A stretch of 64,000 nucleotides of DNA from an uncultured Gammaproteobacteria bacterium. GTDB lineage: Bacteria; Patescibacteriota; Microgenomatia; CAYQLK01. The position numbers and the translations under genes were made by a program. Of this stretch, positions 4,927 to 23,609 are shown piece by piece. Each line of letters begins with the position of its first letter. Within the stretch, counting starts at the first letter, position 1. The DNA is taken from contig CAYUKQ010000001.1 of assembly GCA_964445355.1 (NCBI GenBank), positions 12,277 to 76,276 on the forward strand, written 5' to 3'. The notes beneath the pieces were generated by a model. It had not been told where the DNA came from, did no database searches, and saw only the letters and a program-made list of their open reading frames with translations.

Positions 4927-6240
4927 ATGGAAGTCAGAGTAAGAGTTGCGCCGTCACCCACAGGCACACCGCACATAGGTTTTAGCAGAACTGCAGTTTT
5001 TAACTGGTTATTTGCCAAAGCGAACAAGGGAAAATTTATTCTCCGTATCGAAGACACGGATCAGGTGCGATTGGTACCAGGCTCTGAAGAAAAAATTATC
5101 GAGGGACTTAAGTGGCTTGAAATTGAACCCGATGAAAGCCCAATTCTTGGTGGTGAATATGGCCCATATATTCAATCACAAAGACTGGATATTTATCACA
5201 AATACGCCGACGAATTACTTAGTTCAGGTAAGGCATACAAAGAAGATGGGGCTATTCGTTTCAAAACTAAGACAAACGGTGTAACTTCTTGGGAAGATCT
5301 AATTCACGGCAAAATTGAGTTTGCTAACGACACATTTGGCGATTTCGTAATTATCAAATCAGACGGGTATCCTACTTACCATTTTGCTCATGTTATTGAC
5401 GATCATTTAATGCGGATTAGTCATGTTTTTCGTGGCGATGAGTGGATATCTTCAACCCCCAAACATATTCAAATATTTGAAGCACTCGGATGGGGCAGTG
5501 AAATACCTTTTTATGTCCACCTGCCATTAATTGTCGGTCCAGATAAGGCAAAACTCAGTAAGCGTCACGGAGCTGAGTCAGCGATGATTTATCGCGACAA
5601 CGGTTACTTACCAGAAGCGATTTTTAATTTTTTAGCATTACTGGGATGGTCACCAAAAACAGATCAGGAAATATTCTCCAGAGAAGAACTAATTGCAAAA
5701 TTTGACCTAAAAGGTGTCAATCCTACGATGCCAACTTTCAATATTGATAAACTTAATTGGTACAATGGTCAGTATATTCGTGCACTTAGCGACTCAGATC
5801 TGGCTGACAGAATAATAAATGGCAATTTTATTGACACAAAAATTGTCACAAAGGATCAGATCCTCAAAATAATTCCATTGATCAAAGAAAGAATGGTGAC
5901 TTTGAAAGACTTTGAAAAATTCTCTACATTTTTCTTTGGAGAATTCGCACCCAACATTACTGAGTTATCCAAAAAACATTCCGAAAAAGAAATCACAACC
6001 ATTTTAAACGACGCGCTAAATATTTTAGATCACCAGGACACCCTTGACACTTTAAATCTTGAGGAATCATTCAGGAGCTATGTACAAAAAACGCAACAAA
6101 AACCCTCCAATGTTTTTATGGTCCTTCGCGTAGCTGTCACGGGATCCATAGCTACTCCGCCATTGTTTCAAACAATGGAAGTAATTGGAAAAGATGAGTG
6201 TATTAGTAGGATCAAACAAAACCTCTCTCAAATCAAATGA
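4927..6240 (+). CDS. gltX: Glutamyl-tRNA synthetase
   Basis: Class I HIGH-type motif (PSPTGTPHIGFSRTAVFNW) and KMSKS-like KLSKRHG. 437 aa. Confidence 0.9.
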   Translation: MEVRVRVAPSPTGTPHIGFSRTAVFNWLFAKANKGKFILRIEDTDQVRLVPGSEEKIIEGLKWLEIEPDESPILGGEYGPYIQSQRLDIYHKYADELLSSGKAYKEDGAIRFKTKTNGVTSWEDLIHGKIEFANDTFGDFVIIKSDGYPTYHFAHVIDDHLMRISHVFRGDEWISSTPKHIQIFEALGWGSEIPFYVHLPLIVGPDKAKLSKRHGAESAMIYRDNGYLPEAIFNFLALLGWSPKTDQEIFSREELIAKFDLKGVNPTMPTFNIDKLNWYNGQYIRALSDSDLADRIINGNFIDTKIVTKDQILKIIPLIKERMVTLKDFEKFSTFFFGEFAPNITELSKKHSEKEITTILNDALNILDHQDTLDTLNLEESFRSYVQKTQQKPSNVFMVLRVAVTGSIATPPLFQTMEVIGKDECISRIKQNLSQIK

Positions 6241-10695: not shown

Positions 10696-11880
10696 ATGTC
10701 GCCAGAAAAAAAAGATTTCGTTTCCGAATGGGTCAAAACCCCCAGATCTGCAGAGGAATTCACTCAAAATTTTGAAAAGTCGCGTGTGGTTCATGGTCGA
10801 CCGTTAGCACACGCATACCAAAAACTCGTCGAAATTGAAGGTTTAAATAAAACCGACCTTCTTTGTCTGGGGATCGGGACCGCCAAGGTCGAAGAGATGA
10901 TGAGGCTTGATTCCGCTCGTATAACCGCGATCGAATTTAATGAGTCCTATATTGCTAAAGCCAAAACTCGTCTTCCCAGGGCGAAATTTTTACAGGGAAG
11001 AATGGAAGATTTAATTCAGTCCGTCGATCCGTCATCAATTTGCCTCAGTCAGGAATCGCTTGATTGTATTCCTCCTGCTCAACTTCCCGAGCTGGTCGGC
11101 AGGATCAAACAAAAGACCGGTAAGCTGGTTGCTATTCAGACTTACAGTCCTGATCCGGAATTTTACGGATCCTCCTGGTCTGGAGCAGATCACGCCATTG
11201 GTGGTCTGGGTCTTGAAGGTGCAACAATACAACAGCAAAAAGTTTTAGAAACCAAATTGAACAATCAAGGTGTTCAATCGACGCTAGATAACCCTCGAAG
11301 AATGCTTAGTGAATTACAAAAATATGTTGAAAATATTATTGGAGCAAGATTCAGTATCGATATTGTAGAGGCACTTGAACACATTGGTTACCCATTTACT
11401 GATCTTCCCAAAGAGGCAGGGCTTCGCAGTCTGCCAGCTCAAGCCTCGCTTTTACTCAATCACACTGAATTACAAGTTGAACACCTTAAAAACGTTTTAG
11501 GTAGACATCTAGCGAATCGCCATCGAGAGGCTGGTCTTTATATTGGTATTGACACCACTCATCGCTTCCTCCAATTGTTATTAGGAACATTTCGAATTGA
11601 TCTGTTTCAACAGCTTTTAGTCCGAGCTTGCCAAGAAGCAGGTTACTGCGACATACGCTTAAAATCTATCAATGCTTCTGAAAAAAGGACCCTAGAACCT
11701 TCTGAATTAGTTGCTCAGTTTAACCGTTCATTGGATGTAATTAAGAAAAAACCAGTTTTCCGACGGATCAGGCCTGACGATAAGTATAGTCGTGCCTTTG
11801 TTGGCTCGCCAATTATTCTCATGGAACCATCTGACAATACTTACTCAATAGCCAGAGTACCTTACTTATCGGCGGCGTGA
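10696..11880 (+). CDS. Hypothetical protein (possible Rossmann/methyltransferase-like N-terminal region)
   Basis: 394-aa ORF. Weak glycine-rich segment LLCLGIGTAKVEE. No confident domain assignment. Confidence 0.45.
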   Translation: MSPEKKDFVSEWVKTPRSAEEFTQNFEKSRVVHGRPLAHAYQKLVEIEGLNKTDLLCLGIGTAKVEEMMRLDSARITAIEFNESYIAKAKTRLPRAKFLQGRMEDLIQSVDPSSICLSQESLDCIPPAQLPELVGRIKQKTGKLVAIQTYSPDPEFYGSSWSGADHAIGGLGLEGATIQQQKVLETKLNNQGVQSTLDNPRRMLSELQKYVENIIGARFSIDIVEALEHIGYPFTDLPKEAGLRSLPAQASLLLNHTELQVEHLKNVLGRHLANRHREAGLYIGIDTTHRFLQLLLGTFRIDLFQQLLVRACQEAGYCDIRLKSINASEKRTLEPSELVAQFNRSLDVIKKKPVFRRIRPDDKYSRAFVGSPIILMEPSDNTYSIARVPYLSAA

Positions 11881-13431
11881 TTTTTTTGATACGACATCGG
11901 TACCAATTGCTTGAGTGATATTCGCATATCCATCGCTTTTGATTAATTCACTAAGTCCATAATTAATCTGCATAATTAATTGTGGGCCAACAAACACCAT
12001 TCCCGTGATCAGCTGAACTAAGCTGGCACCATTTTTTATTTTTGTATAAGCATCTTCAGCCGAAAAAACGCCTCCACATCCGACAATAATAAAACGCGTG
12101 CCGTAATTTTTGTAAGCAAGTTTAATTAGCTTATTGGAGTCATCAAACGTTGGTCTCCCGCTGAAATAACCCTGTTTGAACTTAGCTACCTCACTTTTGT
12201 CAAGCAGAGGGTGTTTTTTGTTTTTTTGTAAATTTCCAAAAATTACACCGACAGGGGAGTGTTTAGCAATAACCTTTAACATCTCCAGTGTTTCTTTCTC
12301 TGTTTTCTCGATCGGCATTTTGACAAAGACGGGTTTAGATAATTTTAAGCTGTCAATTGCAGTAAGTAATGCTGAAAGATTTTTCGATGAATAAAATTCC
12401 ACATTTCCCGACAAATTCGGACAGCTGATATTTAATTCATAATAAGCGTGTTTAACTTTTGATTTTTCTACTACGCTAAAGGCCGCAACAATATCCTCAA
12501 CACTTTGTTTTTGCGTCAATTTATCCGTGTTTGTTCTACCAATGCTAATACCAACCGGGATACCAAATACCTCACCTTTAAGTTTTTTACTAACTACTTC
12601 AACACCCTGATTCTTAAATCCTTTATTGACCATTAGTGATCTCGACTTAATCAATCGACCCAGCATCGGTCGGGGATTCCCGTCATACGCTCCATTTGTC
12701 AATGTTCCCATCGATTGGAAACCAAAACCCCAAGGTGCCAGTGACTTGCCAAGCTTAGCTTCATAGTCGAACCCCGCTGCCAGTCCAATTGGGTAATTAA
12801 AATTAAGTCCAGCGACTTTTTGTTTTAATTCCGGCAAATCGGACCTGATCAGGGAAGCAACAAGCCATCTTGAAACACTCATTCTGCCCACGCTTGCACC
12901 CAGTCCGGTCACAACTATGTGCACCATTTCTGGGTCAAAAGCAAAAAATATTCGTTTAATTACATATCGATAAGTCAGTCTGAATACATCTAAGATCAAT
13001 AATTTTCTTTCTCTTCCAAAATAAGCTTGCATGAATGCAAAAATAAAAGTCGAAACGAACGCGGAAACCATGCAATAGATACAAATCCCTTTTATGACTG
13101 CGAACTGCAGATAAACAAAATACATTGAGAATCCAAAACCTACCAAGGATTGAGCTACCGCCAACTTACCAGCTATTATTCGATATTTTGTTAAGCTAAA
13201 TAATAGCAATACTGTCAGCGCCAAGTACTGAATAATTCCCCAGACAGGCAAGGGAACTCCAAGCATTACCGAATACTGGCTTCGCAAAACTCTTCCACAA
13301 TCGACAAACAAAAAAGAACTGGTCGTGCACGGTGGCAAGGTTCCAGCAAAATGTTCATGTGCCAGATAAATTGCGTCTCCAAGCCCAAATATTGTAAGTG
13401 CCAGCAAAGTTACCAATACAAACTTCCTCAT
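11866..13431 (-). CDS. pyrD: Fusion protein: N-terminal VKOR (vitamin K epoxide reductase-like, DsbB analogue) domain + C-terminal dihydroorotate dehydrogenase (class 2, quinone-dependent, PyrD)
   Basis: N-terminus has loop cysteines (PPCTTSSFLFVDC), SxxxxGxP (SQYSVMLGVPLPVWG) and the active-site CxxC in a TM helix (KGICIYCMVSAF), as in bacterial VKOR. C-terminal part aligns by eye with E. coli PyrD (FNYPIGLAAGFDYEAK..., NKGFKNQGVE, GISIGRTN). Confidence 0.7.
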   Translation of the reverse strand: MRKFVLVTLLALTIFGLGDAIYLAHEHFAGTLPPCTTSSFLFVDCGRVLRSQYSVMLGVPLPVWGIIQYLALTVLLLFSLTKYRIIAGKLAVAQSLVGFGFSMYFVYLQFAVIKGICIYCMVSAFVSTFIFAFMQAYFGRERKLLILDVFRLTYRYVIKRIFFAFDPEMVHIVVTGLGASVGRMSVSRWLVASLIRSDLPELKQKVAGLNFNYPIGLAAGFDYEAKLGKSLAPWGFGFQSMGTLTNGAYDGNPRPMLGRLIKSRSLMVNKGFKNQGVEVVSKKLKGEVFGIPVGISIGRTNTDKLTQKQSVEDIVAAFSVVEKSKVKHAYYELNISCPNLSGNVEFYSSKNLSALLTAIDSLKLSKPVFVKMPIEKTEKETLEMLKVIAKHSPVGVIFGNLQKNKKHPLLDKSEVAKFKQGYFSGRPTFDDSNKLIKLAYKNYGTRFIIVGCGGVFSAEDAYTKIKNGASLVQLITGMVFVGPQLIMQINYGLSELIKSDGYANITQAIGTDVVSKKSRRR

Positions 13432-16339: not shown

Positions 16340-17200
16340 ATGTGTAGTAAGCGTAAACCGCTTAGTTTTGGATTTAGTTTCATCGAACTTATTGTCTCTA
16401 TAGGCATTTTTGGGGTATTAATTTCACTGATCATTGTCGCTGTCAATCCTGTAAGTCAATTTAAAAGAACTCGCGACGTGCAAAGAGCGTCTGATCTCAA
16501 AGCGATCCAAGTCGGGTTGGAGGCTTATAGGATAGCTAATAACTCTTACCCGTTATCCACACAAGATTTTAAAATTACCGGCACCGATTGGGGAGACAAA
16601 TGGGAGACCTATATGCAGCTTCCAGCCGACCCTTTGGAGGAATATAGTTATGCTTATGTTTCCCAGCTTGGAGACAGCTATCAAATTTATGCTCGGTTTG
16701 AAACCACTCCACCTCAGGAATTAGTCTGCACCCCAAACTGCGGACCGAACGGGCTGTACAATGCCGGTTTAGCCAGTGCAAATAGTTCACTTGCGGCAAT
16801 CATGTTCGTACCTTCACCGACACCAACCGCCACACCCACACCTACAGATCTTCCGCAAGGCAAAGTCTCGTATTTTGGAACTTCAGCAACTTACCCGAAG
16901 ATCATTCAGGTCGATTTTGATCCTCTCGATGTGCCGCTCAACCAGACACAATTACTGACTGCCAAAGTTTGGTCAGAAAATCCCGTTGAGACGGTTACGC
17001 TGCGCCTTGAATTGGATAACACGATTACCGAGACCTACCAGCTTGCCCAAACTTCAACAGTGATCATTAATGGAATATATCGCGATCTCTGGTCGATCAG
17101 TATTCCCCATACCGACAGTCATAATTCTCGGTATTCAGTGTATCTATCTGCCACAGACTCGCAAAGTAATAGTATAAATCCAGAAATAATTATCAGATAA
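16340..17200 (+). CDS. Type IV pilin-like protein (class III prepilin signal)
   Basis: G|FSFIELIVSIGIFGVLISLIIVAV has the prepilin peptidase site with Glu at +5. 286 aa with a Thr/Pro linker (PSPTPTATPTPT). Confidence 0.7.
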   Translation: MCSKRKPLSFGFSFIELIVSIGIFGVLISLIIVAVNPVSQFKRTRDVQRASDLKAIQVGLEAYRIANNSYPLSTQDFKITGTDWGDKWETYMQLPADPLEEYSYAYVSQLGDSYQIYARFETTPPQELVCTPNCGPNGLYNAGLASANSSLAAIMFVPSPTPTATPTPTDLPQGKVSYFGTSATYPKIIQVDFDPLDVPLNQTQLLTAKVWSENPVETVTLRLELDNTITETYQLAQTSTVIINGIYRDLWSISIPHTDSHNSRYSVYLSATDSQSNSINPEIIIR

Positions 17201-17202
17201 AA

Positions 17203-19317
17203 ATGTCTACCCAAAAAATCCTCACCATCAAACAATTAACCAAACACTTAACCAAAATATTGTTTGTGTTTGTCTTTTTAATGTTAGGTAGCATTGCAGT
17301 TGCAAAACTCAATTCTGTTTATGCGGTTTATAGTATTAATTCTGTAACTCCAACTTGTGTTGGAACGACTTCCTCGGTCTCGGTTAATTACAGTGTTGAC
17401 GGCCCAAACGGTGCCGCAGGCACAACAGACAATCCATACAATCAATACTCGACCATGTATGATTTTAGTCAATTCTTGTCTGGTACTTATTCCAGCACTT
17501 GGAACAAAGGCGGATTAGGATTTTCTGCCGGAGTAAGTTACACAATTCTTCTTCAGGACCGCAATTTAGGCTGGCCGTCAATGAACAAAGCATCCCAGGT
17601 GTTTACAGCCCTGAATTGTCAGACACCTCCTACTATTACCTCGCCTACCAAAACATCGTTCACCACCACCGGAGCCACACTTGGGGGAAATGTTACCTCA
17701 GCCGGCAATGGTACTTGGTCAAGCAGGGGAGTATGTGTCGGACTTTCAGCTAATCCTACGACTGGTTGTACCAGCACCAGTGGAACGACTGGAGTGTTTA
17801 CTGTCGCTGTCAGTGGTCTGAGCAGCAATACTCTCTATCACTACCGAGCCTACGCAGCCAGTTCGGCTGGCACGGTTTACACTACAGACGACACCTTTAC
17901 CACGCTCAATCCAAACACCCAACCGACCGTTGTCTCCGGGCCAACACTCAGCTATCAGAACAGTCGTTTCCGAACAGGTCCTAATACAACCTGGTCTCTT
18001 ACTTTGCGAGCTGATGATGCTGAGCAAACAGGTGCGAATGCCTTATCTTGGCAGTTACGTACAGCATCCGGCGGCGGCGGCACACTTATTACCAGCGGAA
18101 CGACGACTAGCGGCCAGACCAACAATTTCGGTAGCTTTGCCTATACACAAACAGGGGTCGTTGAAGGCAGTAATACCGTCTACTTAAGAATCTATGATGG
18201 GACCGCTTGGTCAAACGATTGGTTCAGTTGGTTGTACCGCGATACCGTCAATCCGACCAGTGCAACTTCTATTTCACACTCCCCTGCTAATGTTTCCACG
18301 GATAATAACTACACTGTGACCTTCACACCCAACGATGCTGCAAGTACTAATAGCAATGAGCTTATTGGGTATGTCTACACCGGACCCAACGGTACTGGTA
18401 CATATCTTACAGGCACGTCCGCAACCAGCGGACAATCCAAGACCACCTCAACGATTACAGATACCGCTCTGGTTCAAGGAAACAATACTCGTTATCTCAG
18501 GACCTGTGATGGGGCGAATAACTGCAGTGACACAAGTTTCACAGTTATCAAAAGTAGTACGGCTTCAATATCTTCACCGACCAAGAATTCGATCACGGTT
18601 TACGGAGCAAATCTCGGTGGTAACATCACTACTGACAATGGTAATACCATAACCGGTAGGGGTGTTTGTGTCGGAGCAAGCGCCGACCCTGCTATAGGTG
18701 GAAACTGTATAGGTACAACCGGAACTACTGGAATATTTAGCGTACTTTTTACCAATCTCACCGGCGCAACGACCTACCACTACCGTGCTTACGCTACCAA
18801 CTCCGCCGGTACGGTGTATACAACAGATGACACTTTTATAACAATCACTCCGGCCACAGGATGTACATTCCCGATCTCCGGTGATGTCTCAATCAACTCC
18901 ACCTGCAACATCCCTACCAACGGACTTACCGTATCAACAACACAGTTAAGGCTTGTTGGTTCAGACACAGGCAGTATTCAAATGCTGGCTGATATGACGG
19001 TTAATCCGGGCAGCATTCTTGTTTGGGGTCCGGGAAAACAAATTGTCCGAGCTCCTGGTGTAACAATGTTTAACGCTACCGGAACACAAATTACCCAAAA
19101 ATATATCTGCCTCTATGATCCGGATTCCGATGGTGTGCCTAATGACTACATCGTCAACACTCAAGGCGGGACCGCAGTACTGCAAGACAGCTCAAGCTGT
19201 GGAACGAACTACATTCGTCCAAACTCATTGAATGCGGCATTTTTAGAATTCAATAGTGCGGTCAAAGACCTCGCTCCAGACGATGGATTGTGTTTTGACA
19301 GTGCAACATGTAATTAG
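17203..19317 (+). CDS. Large Ser/Thr/Gly-rich cell-surface protein with two internal repeats of about 90 aa (putative adhesin)
   Basis: N-terminal signal/TM (ILFVFVFLMLGSIAVA). Repeat 1 nt 17638-17907 (TSPTKTSFTTTGATLGGNVTSAGNGTWSSRGVCVGLSANP...YHYRAYAASSAGTVYTTDDTFTTL). Repeat 2 nt 18571-18846 (SSPTKNSITVYGANLGGNITTDNGNTITGRGVCVGASADP...YHYRAYATNSAGTVYTTDDTFITI). Starts 3 nt after the pilin gene. Confidence 0.65.
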   Translation: MSTQKILTIKQLTKHLTKILFVFVFLMLGSIAVAKLNSVYAVYSINSVTPTCVGTTSSVSVNYSVDGPNGAAGTTDNPYNQYSTMYDFSQFLSGTYSSTWNKGGLGFSAGVSYTILLQDRNLGWPSMNKASQVFTALNCQTPPTITSPTKTSFTTTGATLGGNVTSAGNGTWSSRGVCVGLSANPTTGCTSTSGTTGVFTVAVSGLSSNTLYHYRAYAASSAGTVYTTDDTFTTLNPNTQPTVVSGPTLSYQNSRFRTGPNTTWSLTLRADDAEQTGANALSWQLRTASGGGGTLITSGTTTSGQTNNFGSFAYTQTGVVEGSNTVYLRIYDGTAWSNDWFSWLYRDTVNPTSATSISHSPANVSTDNNYTVTFTPNDAASTNSNELIGYVYTGPNGTGTYLTGTSATSGQSKTTSTITDTALVQGNNTRYLRTCDGANNCSDTSFTVIKSSTASISSPTKNSITVYGANLGGNITTDNGNTITGRGVCVGASADPAIGGNCIGTTGTTGIFSVLFTNLTGATTYHYRAYATNSAGTVYTTDDTFITITPATGCTFPISGDVSINSTCNIPTNGLTVSTTQLRLVGSDTGSIQMLADMTVNPGSILVWGPGKQIVRAPGVTMFNATGTQITQKYICLYDPDSDGVPNDYIVNTQGGTAVLQDSSSCGTNYIRPNSLNAAFLEFNSAVKDLAPDDGLCFDSATCN

Positions 19318-19366
19318 AAACAATCATTGACAATCCGTAGCTTTTTGCTACAATCCTATCTCAACA

Positions 19367-19618
19367 ATGAAAGACAAACCAAGGTTGTGTTTGTTAAATA
19401 TTCATAAGTCCACGGGTTCCCGAGCAGTCGCTCGGGTTTTTTTTGATCAAATTTCCCTTCAATCGCTCAAAAACAGCAAAGAGTTTGAGCCGTTTAACCC
19501 CCAGGAACTGCAGTCAATTTTGAGTCTTAATTTCCAAAACCTATCTGCCTTTAGTAGTTCCAACTCATCCAGTTGCGCAGCTTGTTCTCACAGTGGCTGT
19601 CACGGTAATTGCAGATAA
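19367..19618 (+). CDS. Putative RiPP (TOMM/LAP-type) precursor peptide A1. C-terminal core SAFSSSNSSSCAACSHSGCHGNCR. True start uncertain.
   Basis: ORF ends in a Cys/Ser-rich tail typical of azol(in)e precursor cores. Leader shares an N[SA]KEF[ED] motif with the downstream peptide. The terminator hairpin at 19419-19444 lies inside this ORF and no ATG/GTG follows it in frame (only a TTG 32 codons from the end). Start may be internal, or expression may depend on read-through. Confidence 0.4.
   Translation: MKDKPRLCLLNIHKSTGSRAVARVFFDQISLQSLKNSKEFEPFNPQELQSILSLNFQNLSAFSSSNSSSCAACSHSGCHGNCR
19419..19444 (+). terminator. Rho-independent terminator (downstream of surface-protein gene, upstream of or within the RiPP precursor region)
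   Basis: cccgagc-agtc-gctcggg perfect 7-bp stem followed by T8. Confidence 0.75.
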
Positions 19619-19645
19619 ATATTTGAAAGGAGGTGAAAATAAAAA

Positions 19646-19789
19646 GTGAACAAGACTAATAATAACGCTAAAGAATTCGACGAAGTCGTTTCTGAGGTTA
19701 AACTGTCCCAAGAAGAGATTAGTGATGCTACCAGTAGTGCATCTGCACAAGGATCATGTGGTCACACAGGTTCGAATTCAGGTAGATAA
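19646..19789 (+). CDS. Putative RiPP (TOMM/LAP-type) precursor peptide A2 (47 aa): VNKTNNNAKEFDEVVSEVKLSQEEISDATSSASAQGSCGHTGSNSGR
   Basis: Missed by the 60-aa ORF track. GTG start 8 nt after a strong SD (AAGGAGGTG). Acidic leader followed by a Ser/Thr/Cys/Gly-rich core. Lies immediately upstream of YcaO and SagB-type genes. Confidence 0.6.
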   Translation: MNKTNNNAKEFDEVVSEVKLSQEEISDATSSASAQGSCGHTGSNSGR

Positions 19790-19858
19790 AACTCCTTCTC
19801 TCATAGCTAGCTGAGTAATCAAGTGTGAGCTCACACAAATAAAAACAGGATAGTATTT

Positions 19859-21151
19859 ATGTCAAAACAAAGCTTGATCGAAAGCAACTTAGAGTTGCTA
19901 TATCAAAAATGCGTTTCTGCCCACGAAAAAACAAAATTTATATCAACCGTTCATCGGAGCTTTTTCTACAACGATGAACCCAAGCTGTATACGTTCATTT
20001 TGAACAGTAAAAACTCGTCCAAAAAATTCCGTACCAACGCCAGCGGCTCGGCCTGGGATGAAAAACTCGCTTTTATTAAAGGCTATATTGAAATGATAGA
20101 AAGATACGCACTGATCCCTTCAGATCAAGACCTCGATCATTTAGTTCTCTCGTCCGAGACTGGATTGCCTAAGGCAATAAAACTTAGCAAATTCATGAAA
20201 TTCTCACATAGCCAAATGATCGACAAGTTTTTTGCCCGAAAAGTCGCGACCGAGAATGACCCTTTATACTGGACTGAAGCTATTGATTTATGTGCCCGCA
20301 AAACCGTATATATTCCGGCTCAAACTGTTTTTTGTCCGTTCGGAAAAAAAGAAAAAATCATTCGCACGCCAATTTCAACGGGCGCATCAGCGGGTTTGGA
20401 CAAAAATTCAACAATAACCAGGGCAATTTTTGAAGTTCTTGAAAGAGACACGTTTATTTCATCCTATTTGGGTCGCCTTTCAGGTACGATAATTAAGATA
20501 AAAAACCCAAAAGGAGTGATCAAAGATTTACTGGACGAATTTAGCTTTTATTTACTCGAACCAACAATTATCAGATTGGACAACGATTATCATATTCCCG
20601 TCATACTGACAATTCTTACGGATCTGACTAAAAACAAGCCGGTCATTACCTTCGGACTCAAGTGTCATCCTGATCTGAACAGGGCGATTCAGGGTAGTTT
20701 GGAGGAATCATTTCATACTCGCGGATGGATGCGTGACGAATTGGCAAAATCCGATACTGTCTACATTAATTCACTAATCAAAAATATCGAACACACTTAC
20801 GAGCTCAAAGATCGCGGACTTATCTGGTCTCAACCTTTCGTTCTCAAAAACGTTGATTTTTGGCTTAATAACAAAAAAACATTTAATCTATCTCTCAAAG
20901 CAAGTTATCCAAAAATTCCATTAAATACTCTCCTTAAAAAGTTACAAGCAATCGGATTTGATATTTATCTCAAAGAACTAACTGATCCGGAGATCGCCAA
21001 ACTTGGTTTTTACGCCTGTAAGGTCATCATACCCCAAGCACAACCTCTTTACCTGGAAGAGGATTTTCAATATTTGGACACCAGCCGTATTGAAAAGATC
21101 GCAAAACATAAGATCACCAAGCTTAATACATTTTTACAACCCTTCCTATGA
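19859..21151 (+). CDS. YcaO-domain cyclodehydratase (SagD/TOMM D-protein-like), stand-alone
   Basis: N-terminal NASGSAWDEKLAFIKGYIEMIERYA and central PISTGASAGLDKNSTITRAIFEVLERDTF match the YcaO signatures (ASGxG...ERY and SNG-AxG...E--ERD). 430 aa. No fused E1-like domain. Confidence 0.75.
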   Translation: MSKQSLIESNLELLYQKCVSAHEKTKFISTVHRSFFYNDEPKLYTFILNSKNSSKKFRTNASGSAWDEKLAFIKGYIEMIERYALIPSDQDLDHLVLSSETGLPKAIKLSKFMKFSHSQMIDKFFARKVATENDPLYWTEAIDLCARKTVYIPAQTVFCPFGKKEKIIRTPISTGASAGLDKNSTITRAIFEVLERDTFISSYLGRLSGTIIKIKNPKGVIKDLLDEFSFYLLEPTIIRLDNDYHIPVILTILTDLTKNKPVITFGLKCHPDLNRAIQGSLEESFHTRGWMRDELAKSDTVYINSLIKNIEHTYELKDRGLIWSQPFVLKNVDFWLNNKKTFNLSLKASYPKIPLNTLLKKLQAIGFDIYLKELTDPEIAKLGFYACKVIIPQAQPLYLEEDFQYLDTSRIEKIAKHKITKLNTFLQPFL

Positions 21152-21861
21152 AAGATTATATTTCTGAGTTTTTTATCCAAACCGGGACTCAGTCCGATAA
21201 TGCACCCAAGCCTATCCCATATGATAAATGGCCGATTGCCTGGAAAACAATTCATTACAAGAACTACCCCAGATTTCCGCGTATCGGAATTACAAAATTC
21301 AAACCAGTCTCAGAGATCGAAAAAATCATTTCCAGAAGACGAAGTAATCGAAATACCAATAGGATATTATCCGCTGGCAAATTAAAGAAAATCTTGCATT
21401 TTGCAAACTATGGCGTATCAATTGATGGGCGAAGCTATCGTGCGTACCCCTCAGGGGGAGCCAGATATCCGCTGGAAATTTATCTATTTATTAATAATGT
21501 AAAAGGCCTAAAAAAGGGTCTTTATCATTATGCTTTCGAAACAAATTGCTTAGAATTACTTCAGGATAAAGACATGACAGCAGAATTAAAAGACTTGCTG
21601 GTAGATGGCTGGGTTGCCGACTCAGCTGTTTTTTTGGTCATTACCGCCGTTCCCGGCCGAAGTGCGATTAAATATGCAAACAAGTCATTAAGATATCTCT
21701 TTATTGAAGCAGGCCACTTAGGTCAAAATATATTATTGCTGGCAGAAAAATACAAAGTTAATACCTGTCCGATCGGTGGTTTTTATGAAGATAAGCTCAA
21801 TAAACTCCTTCGAATTGACAGGACCAGCGAGAAAGCAATATATTCAATTGCTATAGGTTGA
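21148..21861 (+). CDS. SagB/McbC-type FMN-dependent dehydrogenase (nitroreductase superfamily) of TOMM pathways
   Basis: RSYRAYPSGGARYPLEIYLFI matches the SagB-family R-x-Y-P-S-x-G-A-x-YP-x-E-x-Y motif. 4-nt overlap (ATGA) with the ycaO stop. Confidence 0.75.
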   Translation: MKDYISEFFIQTGTQSDNAPKPIPYDKWPIAWKTIHYKNYPRFPRIGITKFKPVSEIEKIISRRRSNRNTNRILSAGKLKKILHFANYGVSIDGRSYRAYPSGGARYPLEIYLFINNVKGLKKGLYHYAFETNCLELLQDKDMTAELKDLLVDGWVADSAVFLVITAVPGRSAIKYANKSLRYLFIEAGHLGQNILLLAEKYKVNTCPIGGFYEDKLNKLLRIDRTSEKAIYSIAIG

Positions 21862-23609
21862 TTATGAGTAATGAAAAATTAAGGCAAAATTCACCAGAAA
21901 CGAAAATGCTCGAAAAAGAACCATCAAAAGCCAGACTGACAGCAACCGATCTGAGTATTAGTGTCGGCACCAGAGACTTAATAGTTGATGGCAACTTCTC
22001 AATTGGCACATCAGAAAGACTAGCCTTGATTGGTCGTAATGGCAGCGGAAAAACTTCGCTTCTCGACTTGGTTGCCGCTGTTTCCACGGGCGATCAGCCC
22101 CCTGAATATCTCGACGTAAAGGGGGACATTTCTCTGACCCAAGCCAAGGTAGGCTATCTAAGACAAGATATTCAAGTCGCCTATGATGGTACGGTCAAGG
22201 GGTACATAGATCAGTGTGCACAAGATGTAGCTGCAGTCATCGCAAACTACGATGCTCTTACCGCTAGACTGGCTGACGGCGAGACCGGCGACGAGCTAAT
22301 GGATGAATACGGCAAGGCCTTGGATGAGATGTCGCAGCTGGACGCTTGGGACTTCCCTCGCAAAAGAGAAATGATTCTGCAAGGCCTTGGTCTGACAGCA
22401 GATTACTTGGATCGGGATATGACCGAGGTAAGCGGGGGAGAAGCGACAAAAGTATCTTTAGCGGGAATTTTGGTTGCTTCACCTAATCTAATTTTACTCG
22501 ACGAACCGACCAATAATCTCGATCCTGAGAGCGTGAAATTTTTTGAAGAATGGGTCAAAACTACACAAACTTCACTGCTGTTAGTTTCCCACGATCGGGA
22601 ATTTTTAGACGAAACTGTAACAGAAATACTTGAAATAGATGAAGATACAAAACACCTGATCAGATTCGGAGGTAACTATTCTTTTTATAAACAGAAAAAA
22701 CAAGAGATGTTTGACGCACAGATGCGGTCGTATGAAGAACAACAAAAAAAACGTAAACAACTAGAAGATTCAGCAAAGCAGCTGAAACAAGAGGCGCAAA
22801 GATTTGAAGGTATGTCCAACGATTCTTTTTATCGGGCAAAGGGGGGAGGGCTTGCAAAAAGAGCAAAATCTCAACTGGAGCGAATCGAGCGCGAGTTAAA
22901 TGACATTCCCGAGCCAGTACTCCCTAAACGGCCATCCTTTGAGGTAAAAGAACCACAAATTTCAGACGGGACAGTCATGGTGGCTCAAGATCTTTCGTAT
23001 CGTTATCCAAACAACTCCGTTGATACTTTTTCTAAGGTCAATTTTTCTATTCGTGGAGGTGAAAGGGTTGGAATTGTGGGCGCAAACGGTGCCGGTAAAA
23101 GTACACTCCTTCGAGTTTTAATCGGCAACCTTCCTTCTACAGGCGGGAAAGTAGAGCAATTCAAAGGACTCAAAGTCGGATATTTACCTCAAACAACTGA
23201 CAGGCTTAAACCTGATCAGAACATCATCGACTACATTCGCCGAAAAGCCTCTGTCTCCGTCGAAGACGCATATAAAGCGCTTTCCAGAATGCTACTTGAT
23301 GATTCGGCGCACAAATCCGTATCTGATTTTAGTTTTGGAGAGTTTCGCCGTATCGAGCTAGTAGCACTTTTTGCCTCTAATCCTGACGTATTAGTTCTTG
23401 ATGAGCCGACTAATCATTTAGATATTTATACGATCGAAACTCTTGAAGATGCGCTCACTAGATATCACGGGACGGTTATAACTGTTACACACGATGAAAG
23501 ATTCTTAAAAGATCTAAACATCGACAAAATCATTGTTGTCGGAAAAGGCGGGTTAGTCGGCATGCACAAAGTAGAAGATTCAAAAGATGTCGCTGGATAC
23601 TTTACTTAA
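21858..23609 (+). CDS. ABC-F family ATPase (two tandem NBDs, no TMD), translationally coupled to the RiPP enzymes
   Basis: Walker A GRNGSGKTSLL and GANGAGKSTLL. Signature VSGGEATKVSLA. Walker B LLDEPTNNLD / VLDEPTNHLD. Lys/Gln/Glu-rich inter-domain linker (KKQEMFDAQMRSYEEQQKKRKQLEDSAKQLKQEAQRFEG). ATGA overlap with sagB-like stop. Confidence 0.75.
   Translation: MIMSNEKLRQNSPETKMLEKEPSKARLTATDLSISVGTRDLIVDGNFSIGTSERLALIGRNGSGKTSLLDLVAAVSTGDQPPEYLDVKGDISLTQAKVGYLRQDIQVAYDGTVKGYIDQCAQDVAAVIANYDALTARLADGETGDELMDEYGKALDEMSQLDAWDFPRKREMILQGLGLTADYLDRDMTEVSGGEATKVSLAGILVASPNLILLDEPTNNLDPESVKFFEEWVKTTQTSLLLVSHDREFLDETVTEILEIDEDTKHLIRFGGNYSFYKQKKQEMFDAQMRSYEEQQKKRKQLEDSAKQLKQEAQRFEGMSNDSFYRAKGGGLAKRAKSQLERIERELNDIPEPVLPKRPSFEVKEPQISDGTVMVAQDLSYRYPNNSVDTFSKVNFSIRGGERVGIVGANGAGKSTLLRVLIGNLPSTGGKVEQFKGLKVGYLPQTTDRLKPDQNIIDYIRRKASVSVEDAYKALSRMLLDDSAHKSVSDFSFGEFRRIELVALFASNPDVLVLDEPTNHLDIYTIETLEDALTRYHGTVITVTHDERFLKDLNIDKIIVVGKGGLVGMHKVEDSKDVAGYFT

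What the first reader, a model, noticed from the sequence alone, without database searches (positions are those of the whole stretch)
19448..19789. Two paralogous precursor peptides with shared leader motif N[SA]KEF[ED]
The unannotated 47-aa ORF (GTG 19646, strong SD AAGGAGGTG) and the upstream ORF ending at 19618 both carry ...N(S/A)KEF(E/D)... in an acidic leader. Both end in Ser/Cys/Gly-rich tails terminating in Arg. This indicates a duplicated precursor gene with diverged cores. The leader motif is a candidate recognition sequence.
Basis: seen in the sequence. Interest (0 to 1): 0.7.

Follow-up and report, generated by a model that had tools for sequence, protein, structure and literature searches.

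The report
Two tandem azole-peptide precursor genes
Two neighbouring small genes are real, duplicated precursor peptides of an azole-peptide (RiPP) antibiotic-type operon; the kind of cluster is known, but this one sits with a ribosome-protection-type ABC-F gene and starts with an unusual terminator-like hairpin.

Summary
Two small + strand ORFs, pep1 (19367-19618, 83 aa) and pep2 (19646-19789, 47 aa), carry NSKEFE and NAKEFD. This motif occurs nowhere else in the six-frame translation of the window (expected 0.006).

Both ORFs are kept in six distinct related genomes. Their cores are under extreme purifying selection (dN/dS about 0.007).

They head an operon: pep1-pep2-YcaO-SagB dehydrogenase-ABC-F.

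- **pep2** is homologous to the single precursors of distant clusters, which carry x-[KMI]-E-[FY] and then Q-x-S-C-x-H-T-G-x-N-S.
- **pep1** is a clade-specific paralogue with a diverged core.

The best reading is duplicated precursors of a linear azol(in)e peptide. The K-E-F/Y motif would be the enzyme docking site; this is inferred and untested.

Departures from textbook LAP systems:
- No E1-like or Ocin-ThiF partner, and the YcaO is a single-domain fold.
- No peptidase and no exporter here.
- An ABC-F of ribosomal-protection type is linked to such clusters in differing genomic contexts in at least eleven loci outside the window clade. This hints at a ribosome-targeting product.
- The first 27 codons of pep1 overlap a nucleotide-conserved hairpin plus T8 just after a conserved promoter, a possible attenuator.

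LAP clusters in CPR bacteria were reported in 2020, so this is a new variant of a known kind.

The parts
19327..19354 (+). Sigma-70-type promoter: TTGACA, 16-nt spacer, TG-extended TACAAT
   Evidence: It matches 11 of 12 consensus positions. TTGAC and TTTGnTACAAT are conserved in all window-clade relatives, while the flanking intergenic DNA is variable and full of indels.
19367..19618 (+). pep1, an 83-aa precursor ORF. The ATG lies 12 nt after the -10 box and has no Shine-Dalgarno, so it is leaderless-like.
   Evidence: ORF list. It is the only conserved in-frame start, with no indels in six lineages. An 83-aa homologue was called by others and is the sole hit among 1.84 billion representatives (P0182).
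19376..19393 (+). Small hairpin ACAAAC...GTTTGT in the first codons of pep1
   Evidence: Consensus fold. Pairs are kept, with only A-U to G-U changes.
19419..19444 (+). Terminator-like hairpin CCCGAGC-AGTC-GCTCGGG followed by T8, inside pep1 codons 18-26
   Evidence: Found by the terminator scan. Stem and T8 are invariant in six lineages and only the loop varies. Synonymous divergence is 0.07 here, against 0.55-0.81 in neighbouring coding DNA.
19472..19489 (+). pep1 leader motif NSKEFE
   Evidence: It reads N-[SYF]-K-E-[FY]-[ED] in relatives.
19559..19615 (+). pep1 core-containing C-terminal stretch, ...SSSNSSSCAACSHSGCHGNCR
   Evidence: dN/dS 0.007 and pS 0.71. It is almost identical across the clade.
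19627..19635 (+). Shine-Dalgarno AAGGAGGTG for pep2
   Evidence: Read directly from the sequence. It is conserved in relatives, with one showing AAGGGGGTG.
19646..19789 (+). pep2, a 47-aa precursor. The leader carries NAKEFD (19664-19681) and the core is ATSSASAQGSCGHTGSNSGR.
   Evidence: ORF list. Core dN/dS is 0.008 and leader dN/dS is 0.115. It is homologous to distant precursors. It is on record as a called but unnamed protein, P0051.
19823..19836 (.). Perfect palindrome GTGTGAGCTCACAC between pep2 and ycaO
   Evidence: It is conserved in all relatives amid variable sequence and is unique in the window. Its role is unknown.
19859..21151 (+). YcaO-domain cyclodehydratase, SagD-like, 430 aa, single domain
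   Evidence: PF02624 E 2.7e-39. TIGR03604 scores 180 bits, below its 219 cut-off. The AlphaFold model has pLDDT 90.4 and is one YcaO fold. Best PDB matches are 6peu/6pe3 and the LynD YcaO domain.
21148..21861 (+). SagB-family FMN dehydrogenase, 237 aa, overlapping ycaO by 4 nt
   Evidence: TIGR03605 scores 130.7 bits against a cut-off of 78.4. PF00881 matches. Lys-Tyr dipeptides lie at residues 175 and 201.
21864..23609 (+). ABC-F ATPase of ribosomal-protection type, 581 aa from the ATG (a TTG at 21858 is also possible)
   Evidence: NF000355 scores 407 bits against a cut-off of 380. It has two ABC domains plus the ABC_tran_Xtn linker. The same module occurs in distant clusters with unrelated flanks.

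Best explanation
**What it is.** pep1 (83 aa) and pep2 (47 aa) are tandem paralogous precursor peptides of a linear azol(in)e-containing peptide (LAP/TOMM-type RiPP). They are encoded by one operon: promoter, pep1, pep2, ycaO, sagB, abcF. The host is a small-genome, probably CPR/Patescibacteria, bacterium.

**How it most likely works.**
- The ATP-dependent YcaO cyclodehydrates Cys, Ser and Thr of the C-terminal cores to azolines.
- The SagB flavoprotein oxidises the azolines to azoles.
- The conserved leader element N-x-K-E-[FY] (more generally, an acidic residue followed by an aromatic one) is the docking site that brings both cores to the same enzymes. This happens without the usual E1-like or Ocin-ThiF partner.

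**Origin of the two genes.**
- pep2 is the orthologue of the single precursor found in related clusters.
- pep1 is a clade-specific duplicate with a new core, C-[AS]-A-C-S-H-S-G-C-H-G-N-C-R.

**Shown here.**
- Both ORFs are real coding genes under strong purifying selection.
- They are homologous to each other and to precursors of distant YcaO-SagB clusters.
- Their motif is not a chance match.
- The enzymes belong to the YcaO and SagB families.

**Inferred.**
- Azole chemistry.
- The motif acts as a recognition site (about 0.6).
- The ABC-F is self-protection against a ribosome-targeting product (about 0.45).
- The hairpin plus T8 within pep1 codons 18-26 acts as a translation-sensitive attenuator of the operon (about 0.35).
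For: **Coding and conservation.**
- Both ORFs are present in six distinct sequences of the clade, with no indels.
- Core dN/dS is 0.007 and 0.008. The pep2 leader gives 0.115. The pep1 mid-leader shows a third-position excess. Shifted frames give dN/dS of about 1 or more.

**Paralogy.**
- BLASTP E 6e-4.
- Profile searches rank each peptide as the other family's best window hit.
- The motif is unique to these two ORFs in the window.

**Family.**
- Single precursors stand upstream of YcaO homologues 35-49% identical.
- They share E10, Q35, S37, C38, H40, T41, G42, N44 and S45 with pep2.

**Enzymes.**
- Pfam and NCBIfam hits.
- The ExxER and ExxERD nucleotide-binding motifs are invariant.
- The YcaO model is confident.

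**Operon.**
- The genes abut or overlap by 4 nt.
- The promoter is conserved.

**ABC-F linkage.**
- The module YcaO-SagB-(C39-like peptidase)-ABC-F recurs in L087, L088, L003-5, L098, L099, L008, L009, L053 and L102. The flanking genes are unrelated.

**Precedent.**
- LAP clusters with YcaO, nitroreductase and a small precursor have been reported in CPR genomes (PMC7298704).
Against: **Chemistry and recognition.**
- No chemistry was observed.
- The SagD-subfamily model scores below its curated cut-off: 180 bits against 219.
- The YcaO lacks the Pro-rich PxPxP C-terminus typical of azoline-forming YcaOs. It ends in QPFL.
- No partner or RRE protein exists in the cluster or as a YcaO domain. The recognition mechanism is therefore unknown.
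- The best PDB sequence match is a thioamide-forming archaeal YcaO.

**pep1.**
- pep1-pep2 similarity is modest at profile level (E 0.018).
- The first 27 codons of pep1 evolve like a nucleic-acid element, not like codons: pS 0.23 and no periodicity. Its true N-terminus is therefore unproven.

**Maturation and export.**
- No peptidase or exporter was found in the 64-kb window.

**ABC-F linkage is not obligate.**
- One 46%-identical ABC-F (L103) is not next to a YcaO.
- Many YcaO-SagB relatives carry an M16 peptidase instead of an ABC-F.
Confidence: 0.8

Rival explanations
1. Only the part of pep1 downstream of the hairpin is translated, or pep1 starts at a non-canonical codon. On this reading, the first 80 nt of the transcript (19361-19445) are an untranslated attenuator or a separate small RNA that ends at the T8 terminator.
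For: Region 19367-19447 has low synonymous divergence (0.23; 0.07 in the hairpin) and no codon periodicity. A conserved promoter followed by about 80 nt and an intrinsic-terminator-like hairpin is the classic anatomy of an sRNA or attenuator. There is no Shine-Dalgarno before ATG 19367.
Against: No ATG, GTG or TTG is conserved in frame between the hairpin and the core. The codon before K-N is CTC, CTG, ATA or ATT in different lineages, and no SD precedes it. Yet the mid-leader and core are clearly coding. ATG 19367 is invariant and sits where a leaderless mRNA would begin. The frame is open in all lineages. No second promoter was found before pep2.
Confidence: 0.25
2. The peptides are substrates for a different YcaO reaction (backbone thioamide or amidine), or they are unmodified Cys/His-rich metal-binding peptides. 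They are not azole peptides.
For: The closest solved relative by sequence and fold is the thioamide-forming M. jannaschii YcaO. TIGR03604 scores below its cut-off. There is no PxPxP C-terminus. The cores are rich in Cys and His (CSHSGCHGNC). Standalone YcaOs with a dehydrogenase can make amidines (PMC8442711).
Against: A SagB-family dehydrogenase scores well above its cut-off and is translationally coupled to the YcaO in nearly all of about 90 related loci. No TfuA is seen. The cores have the Cys/Ser/Thr-Gly/Asn composition of LAPs.
Confidence: 0.12
3. pep1 is a decaying duplicate or merely an attenuation leader peptide, and only pep2 gives a product.
For: pep1 lacks an SD and overlaps a regulatory-looking hairpin. 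Its leader is far more variable than that of pep2. pep1 exists only in this clade.
Against: The pep1 core has dN/dS 0.007 with saturated synonymous sites. It is as constrained as pep2. It also keeps the N-x-K-E-[FY] motif in every lineage.
Confidence: 0.05
4. The two ORFs and their shared motif are chance features of AT-rich intergenic DNA.
For: None beyond their small size and lack of annotation.
Against: The motif expectation is 0.006 against 2 observed. The substitution pattern is that of purifying selection. Homologues stand next to YcaO in distant genomes.
Confidence: 0.01

Closest known systems
LAP clusters of CPR bacteria (Sharrar et al. 2020, mBio; PMC7298704)
   Same: A YcaO next to a nitroreductase-type dehydrogenase, with a small Ser/Cys-rich precursor, no E1-like partner listed, and a CPR host. 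That study found 110 such clusters, 89 with the nitroreductase beside YcaO.
   Different: The described example has one 84-aa precursor and a peptidase. Here there are two paralogous precursors, no peptidase and an ABC-F gene. That paper's text, as searched, does not mention ABC-F or a shared leader motif.
Klebsazolicin and phazolicin, ribosome-targeting LAPs (PMC6783444, PMC7136475)
   Same: Linear peptides with Ser/Cys/Asn/Gly-rich cores, made by a YcaO (D) and a dehydrogenase (B). The ribosome is the target there; here that is only inferred from the ABC-F. The Lys-rich tails of the related precursors recall the cationic residues of phazolicin.
   Different: Those clusters have an E1-like C protein for leader binding and an export pump (KlpE/PhzE) for immunity. 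This cluster has neither. It has an ABC-F instead, and there is no sequence similarity between the precursors.
Microcin B17 and streptolysin S synthetases (McbBCD / SagBCD)
   Same: A SagD-type YcaO plus a SagB/McbC-type FMN dehydrogenase act on a leader-core precursor. McbD is a weaker structural match.
   Different: The defining trimeric synthetase includes the leader-binding McbB/SagC subunit, which is absent here. NCBIfam precursor families give no hit.
Partner-independent ('standalone') YcaOs: bottromycin BotC/BotCD and M. jannaschii YcaO (PDB 6PEU)
   Same: A single-domain YcaO that must bind its peptide directly. 6PEU/6PE3 are the best sequence and fold matches. The concept is described in PMC7136475.
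   Different: Those enzymes make a thiazoline or macroamidine on a follower-peptide substrate, or a thioamide on McrA. They have no SagB partner and no N-terminal K-E-F leader.
ABC-F proteins inside antibiotic gene clusters with ribosome-mediated attenuation (e.g. LmrC of the lincomycin cluster, PMC8546547)
   Same: An ABC-F of the antibiotic-resistance type is encoded within a biosynthetic cluster, and a terminator hairpin lies in the 5' region of the transcript.
   Different: Known cases belong to small-molecule antibiotics. I found no report of an ABC-F in a LAP cluster in the searched library. Here the hairpin lies inside the first precursor's reading frame at the head of the whole operon.

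Membership tests
Linear azol(in)e-containing peptide (LAP/TOMM) biosynthetic cluster | YcaO-domain cyclodehydratase (D protein) encoded beside the precursor | tested here: met
   PF02624 E 2.7e-39. The ExxER and ExxERD motifs are invariant. The model is a confident YcaO fold. Note that the SagD-subfamily model TIGR03604 scores 180 bits, below its 219 cut-off.
Linear azol(in)e-containing peptide (LAP/TOMM) biosynthetic cluster | FMN-dependent SagB/McbC-type dehydrogenase (B protein) | tested here: met
   TIGR03605 scores 130.7 bits against a cut-off of 78.4. The gene overlaps ycaO by 4 nt. Lys-Tyr dipeptides are present. The single-sequence structure model failed (pLDDT 31).
Linear azol(in)e-containing peptide (LAP/TOMM) biosynthetic cluster | Leader-binding partner: an E1-like C protein or Ocin-ThiF-like F protein with an RRE, separate or fused | tested here: not met
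   No such gene is in the window cluster or in any of the related modules. The 430-aa YcaO is a single YcaO domain. The same absence appears in the published CPR LAP clusters.
Linear azol(in)e-containing peptide (LAP/TOMM) biosynthetic cluster | Small precursor with an N-terminal leader and a Cys/Ser/Thr-rich C-terminal core | tested here: met
   Shown by the pep1 and pep2 sequences, by selection on the cores, and by family conservation.
Linear azol(in)e-containing peptide (LAP/TOMM) biosynthetic cluster | Pro-rich (PxPxP) C-terminus of azoline-forming YcaOs | tested here: not met
   The C-terminus is ...LNTFLQPFL. Q-P-F-L is (nearly) invariant in the family. This feature is mentioned as characteristic in PMC8442711.
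Linear azol(in)e-containing peptide (LAP/TOMM) biosynthetic cluster | Azol(in)e rings in the mature product | not testable with these tools
   This needs expression and mass spectrometry.
ABC-F antibiotic-resistance (ribosomal protection) proteins | Two ABC domains joined by the ABC-F linker, no membrane domain, and a match to the ARE-type family model | tested here: met
   ABC_tran is matched twice and ABC_tran_Xtn once. NF000355 scores 407 bits against a cut-off of 380. EttA, Uup and specific ARE models all score far below their cut-offs.
ABC-F antibiotic-resistance (ribosomal protection) proteins | Confers protection of the ribosome against a specific inhibitor | not testable with these tools
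   Only genomic linkage is available. It holds for eleven non-clade loci and fails for one close homologue.
Curated RiPP precursor families (NHLP, Nif11, heterocycloanthracin, SLS-type, etc.) | Match to a curated precursor HMM | tested here: not met
   Neither peptide has a Pfam or NCBIfam hit at E up to 0.01.
Intrinsic (Rho-independent) terminator / attenuator | GC-rich stem-loop directly followed by a U-run, downstream of a promoter and upstream of the regulated genes | tested here: met
   A 7-bp stem with 6 GC pairs, a 4-nt loop and T8, lying 65 nt after the -10 box. It is invariant in six lineages. Termination, and its relief, were not tested.

The most novel reading that the evidence does not exclude
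A CPR-wide family of partner-less YcaO/SagB azole peptides targets the ribosome and is guarded by a dedicated ABC-F instead of an export pump.

In this clade the whole operon would be gated by a translation-sensing attenuator written into the leaderless first precursor gene. Under that arrangement, the state of the cell's own ribosomes decides whether toxin, enzymes and protector are transcribed.

With no exporter or leader peptidase nearby, the product might even act inside the producer as a ribosome modulator.
Probability: 0.25. Interest if true: 0.75.

Novelty: new variant of a known kind. Interest (0 to 1): 0.5.

Why it matters
RiPP precursors are routinely missed by gene callers. pep1 as encoded in this window is not in the 15-billion-protein collection; one relative's 83-aa version is its only homologue on record. 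pep2 is there but unnamed.

Establishing two selected precursors with a conserved short docking motif gives a concrete handle on how a YcaO/SagB pair recognises substrates without the canonical leader-binding subunit. That question is still open for standalone YcaOs.

The recurrent ABC-F suggests a testable target, the ribosome, for peptides made by ultra-small, mostly uncultured bacteria. It also suggests a first example of ABC-F-type self-protection in a RiPP cluster.

The hairpin inside the first precursor gene offers a simple in vitro test of translation-coupled control.

Tried and rejected
- **Curated families.** Pfam and NCBIfam scans of both peptides gave no hits.
- **RNA families.** An Rfam scan of 19300-19870 found nothing significant. 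The best match was OmrA-B, 16 bits, E 2.2. The gathering-threshold scan of the window found only two tRNAs.
- **Alternative start for pep1.** I looked for a start after the hairpin. None is conserved.
- **Covariation.** I looked for covariation in the 5' hairpins. There are no double-sided changes because the stems are invariant, so the structure is supported by conservation only.
- **Palindrome.** Folding of the pep2-ycaO spacer shows the palindrome is not more stable than shuffles, z = 0.
- **Partner, peptidase or second ABC-F in the window.**
  - tblastn with C39-like and M16 peptidases from related loci found nothing.
  - tblastn with the window's own ABC-F found no second copy.
- **Metagenome scan.** It added only 5 loci, one informative (L093).
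- **SagB structure.** The single-sequence prediction failed (pLDDT 31), so it says nothing about an N-terminal recognition element.
- **ABC-F lineage.** I tested whether it is exclusive to LAP clusters. One of two new homologues is linked (L102) and one is not (L103), so exclusivity is rejected.
- **Literature.** Searches found no report of an ABC-F in a LAP cluster, and none of this leader motif. The library is incomplete.
Full report
**1. What is in the sequence**

Between the stop of a 704-aa gene (19317) and a YcaO gene (19859) lie two small + strand ORFs.

- **pep2.**
  - It runs from GTG 19646 to the stop at 19787-19789 and encodes 47 aa: MNKTNNNAKEFDEVVSEVKLSQEEISDATSSASAQGSCGHTGSNSGR.
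  - AAGGAGGTG lies at 19627-19635.
  - An in-frame TAA at 19640-19642 leaves GTG as the only possible start.
- **pep1.**
  - The ORF ending at 19618 has its first start at ATG 19367 (83 aa).
  - The peptide is MKDKPRLCLLNIHKSTGSRAVARVFFDQISLQSLKNSKEFEPFNPQELQSILSLNFQNLSAFSSSNSSSCAACSHSGCHGNCR.
- **Motif.**
  - NSKEFE lies at nt 19472-19489 and NAKEFD at nt 19664-19681.
  - These are the only two matches to N[SA]KEF[ED] in 74,516 residues of six-frame ORFs. The expectation is 0.006.
- **Similarity.** BLASTP aligns the two peptides over 42 positions, 33% identity, E 6e-4.

The start of the first ORF is ATG 19367. Only the pep2 leader is markedly acidic.

**2. Are they genes?**

The YcaO has homologues at 74-84% identity in several metagenome-assembled genomes. 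In every such locus that covers the region, both ORFs are present. There are no stops or indels between ATG 19367 and the pep2 stop, apart from one base inserted in the pep1-pep2 spacer in L081/L082.

Nei-Gojobori counts over six distinct sequences:

| Segment | Result |
|---|---|
| pep1 core | dN/dS 0.007 (pS 0.71) |
| pep2 core | dN/dS 0.008 |
| pep2 leader | dN/dS 0.115 |
| pep1 mid-leader (19448-19558) | pS 0.81, pN 0.31, with third-position excess |
| Shifted frames | dN/dS about 1 or more |

The ORFs are conserved, and no other frame codes better.

pep2 is on record as a called but unnamed protein. The window's pep1 sequence is not on record. The 83-aa version of a relative is the only hit to pep1 among 1.84 billion representatives.

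**3. Context**

Downstream genes:
- A YcaO, 19859-21151. PF02624 scores E 2.7e-39. TIGR03604 scores 180 bits, below its 219 cut-off.
- A SagB-family dehydrogenase, 21148-21861. It overlaps ycaO by 4 nt. TIGR03605 scores 130.7 bits against a cut-off of 78.4.
- An ABC-F ATPase, ATG 21864 to 23609. NF000355 (ribosomal protection-like) scores 407 bits against a cut-off of 380.

Upstream, a promoter (TTGACA, 16 nt, TGnTACAAT; 19327-19354) is conserved while its surroundings vary.

This is the gene set of a linear azol(in)e peptide (LAP) cluster, minus three usual parts:
- There is no E1-like or Ocin-ThiF-like leader-binding partner.
- There is no peptidase.
- There is no exporter.

The YcaO model (pLDDT 90.4) is one YcaO domain. 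Its best matches are the standalone M. jannaschii enzyme and the YcaO domain of LynD. The nucleotide-binding ExxER and ExxERD motifs are invariant. The Pro-rich C-terminus typical of azoline-forming YcaOs is replaced by a conserved QPFL.

**4. The wider family**

A scan of 185,579 species genomes gave 80 loci, nearly all with YcaO followed by SagB. They come mostly from CPR bacteria and DPANN archaea. Two architectures appear:
- YcaO-SagB-M16 peptidase.
- YcaO-SagB-(C39-like peptidase)-ABC-F.

The second type has a single precursor of 47-56 aa. Examples:
- L087: MRVKKSQVNKNAKEFITNKMIVGSNCNQGSCTHTGSNSSACYTGKTK
- L098: ...KKYSKEFGTLKPVSGTNCNQGSCSHTGTNSSACYGAKIKTKKL
- L004: MKKISSVMEFSSGMNNLVGANCNQTSCSHTGTNSSACYGVKLVKKIKK

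Aligned with pep2, the invariant positions are the E of K-E-F and Q-x-S-C-x-H-T-G-x-N-S. A profile of these distant peptides picks pep2 as the best of 1348 window ORFs (E 7.7e-5). A pep1 profile picks pep2 as its best non-self hit (E 0.018).

My reading of the two genes:
- pep2 is the orthologue of the ancestral single precursor. It has a longer acidic leader and has lost the Lys-rich tail.
- pep1 is a duplicate confined to this clade, with a re-made core.

The motif x-[KMI]-E-[FY], or at least an acidic residue followed by an aromatic one, also appears in leaders of M16-type clusters. Examples are L011 ENFKEY, L013 DAKEF, L010 VIEF, L014 LEY and L016 MDY. That fits an enzyme-docking element conserved with the YcaO/SagB pair.

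Where the C39-like peptidase is present, the leader ends in V-G-[AS] or S-G-T just before the core. This is a double-glycine-type site. The window clade has neither the site nor the peptidase.

**5. Mechanism**

- **Shown.**
  - These are two selected, homologous precursor genes in an operon with YcaO and SagB family enzymes.
- **Inferred from established knowledge of LAP biosynthesis.**
  - YcaO activates backbone amides with ATP to form azolines from Cys, Ser and Thr, and SagB oxidises them to azoles.
  - The leader motif recruits both peptides to the same enzymes. How this happens without an RRE-containing partner is unknown. Direct binding by the YcaO, as in other standalone YcaOs, is the simplest idea.
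- **The ABC-F.**
  - The module with ABC-F recurs in at least eleven loci outside the window clade, with unrelated flanking genes.
  - A blind test of two further ABC-F homologues found one inside such a cluster (L102) and one elsewhere (L103).
  - Linkage is therefore frequent but not obligate.
  - ARE-type ABC-Fs protect ribosomes, and the two best-studied comparable LAPs, klebsazolicin and phazolicin, block the ribosomal exit tunnel.
  - A ribosome-targeting product with ABC-F self-protection is therefore a reasonable hypothesis. I put it near 0.45.

**6. An unexpected feature of pep1**

Codons 18-26 of pep1 are a perfect intrinsic-terminator-like element at 19419-19444: CCCGAGC, a 4-nt loop, GCTCGGG, then T8.

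- Stem and T-run are invariant in six lineages, and only the loop changes.
- Synonymous divergence is 0.07 there and 0.23 over codons 1-27. It is 0.55-0.81 in the rest of both genes. Codon periodicity is absent.
- A second small hairpin lies at 19376-19393.
- ATG 19367 sits 12 nt after the -10 box and has no Shine-Dalgarno. The mRNA would therefore be leaderless or nearly so.
- No other in-frame start is conserved.

Either the 83-aa peptide is made from a leaderless mRNA whose 5' coding region doubles as an attenuator, or the first 80 nt are untranslated and pep1 starts unconventionally.

A ribosome following the polymerase closely would prevent the hairpin from forming. Operon transcription would then depend on translation status. 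This is a speculative but testable link to a ribosome-directed product and an ABC-F.

In all lineages, the -1 frame reads a stop directly after the T8 (notebook). I cannot say whether that is meaningful.

**7. Comparison with what is known, and novelty**

- LAP clusters consisting of YcaO, nitroreductase, peptidase and a small precursor were reported in CPR genomes in 2020. That study counted 110 clusters and speculated that they resemble phazolicin (PMC7298704).
- Multi-precursor RiPP clusters are common (my own knowledge).
- The finding itself, two paralogous precursors with a shared leader motif, is thus a sound but unsurprising new member of that kind.
- Four things go beyond the published description, as far as the searchable library shows:
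  - The conserved short K-E-F/Y leader motif across the family.
  - The recurrent ABC-F in place of an exporter.
  - The loss of the peptidase in this clade.
  - The promoter-proximal hairpin embedded in the first precursor gene.
- I rate it a new variant of a known kind, with interest 0.5.

**8. Limits**

- No chemistry, binding, transcription or translation was measured.
- The host taxonomy rests on record titles of related loci. Several closest bins are labelled 'uncultured Gammaproteobacteria', which I doubt.
- The SagB structure prediction failed.
- Covariation support for the hairpins is nil because they do not vary.

Noticed in passing
window 19419-19444: A terminator-like hairpin (7-bp stem, 6 GC pairs) followed by T8 lies inside pep1 codons 18-26, 65 nt after the -10 box. 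Stem and T-run are invariant in six lineages, and only the loop varies. Synonymous divergence is 0.07.
   Followed up: partly
window 19327-19369: A conserved TTGACA/TGnTACAAT promoter has the invariant ATG of pep1 only 12 nt after the -10 box and no Shine-Dalgarno. This implies a leaderless or near-leaderless mRNA, whereas pep2 uses GTG with a strong SD.
   Followed up: partly
window 19437-19447: In all six lineages the two bases after the T8 are GA, AG or AA. The -1 frame therefore reads TGA, TAG or TAA immediately after the U-run. This may be coincidence (D/N/S in frame 0) or a slippage outlet.
   Followed up: no
window 19823-19836: The perfect 14-nt palindrome GTGTGAGCTCACAC between pep2 and ycaO is conserved in all relatives amid variable sequence and is unique in the window. 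As RNA it is no more stable than shuffles. It could be an operator or a processing site.
   Followed up: partly
window 21864-23609; L087, L088, L003-L005, L098, L099, L008, L009, L053, L102: An ABC-F of ribosomal-protection type follows YcaO-SagB in many distant clusters with unrelated flanks. One close ABC-F homologue (L103) is not next to a YcaO.
   Followed up: partly
L087 2958-3683; L088 2594-3310; L003-L005; L098 5139-5846; L099 2385-3125: A 235-246-aa Peptidase_C39_2-like gene sits between SagB and the ABC-F. Its clusters' precursors end their leaders in V-G-[AS] or S-G-T and carry Lys-rich C-terminal tails. The window clade lacks the gene, the site and the tail.
   Followed up: partly
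L102 2658-2897: The precursor of an ABC-F-linked cluster contains eight tandem GGGS repeats between the leader (…DLEEAFEASLEL…) and the core QCSNSGNPCGGSCNRCSK.
   Followed up: no
L004 about 4960-4990; L005 about 4965-4990: The hairpin AAAGGAGGG-loop-CCCTCCTTTTT between the precursor gene and ycaO contains the Shine-Dalgarno of ycaO. It may be an attenuator that sets the precursor-to-enzyme ratio.
   Followed up: no
window 17203-19317: The upstream 704-aa protein has no Pfam hit. It contains two copies of a ...YHYRAYA.SSAGTVYTTDDTF... module. It is syntenic only within the window clade and follows a T2SS-G-like pseudopilin gene (16340-17200).
   Followed up: no
window 11866-13431 (- strand): A 521-aa protein whose orthologue in L081 carries both VKOR and dihydroorotate dehydrogenase Pfam domains. 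This is an unusual fusion.
   Followed up: no
protein cluster of P0051: The 90%-identity cluster of the 47-aa pep2 also lists a 474-aa HlyD-family protein from an alphaproteobacterial MAG. This is probably a clustering artefact.
   Followed up: no
L001, L002 and other TPA bins: The closest genome bins are titled 'uncultured Gammaproteobacteria bacterium'. Gene content and the more distant relatives (Saccharibacteria, Dojkabacteria, Microgenomates) point to CPR, so the labels look unreliable.
   Followed up: no
L103 6856-7635 (- strand): Four small genes (46-68 aa) lie directly downstream of the unlinked ABC-F homologue. They were not examined further.
   Followed up: no
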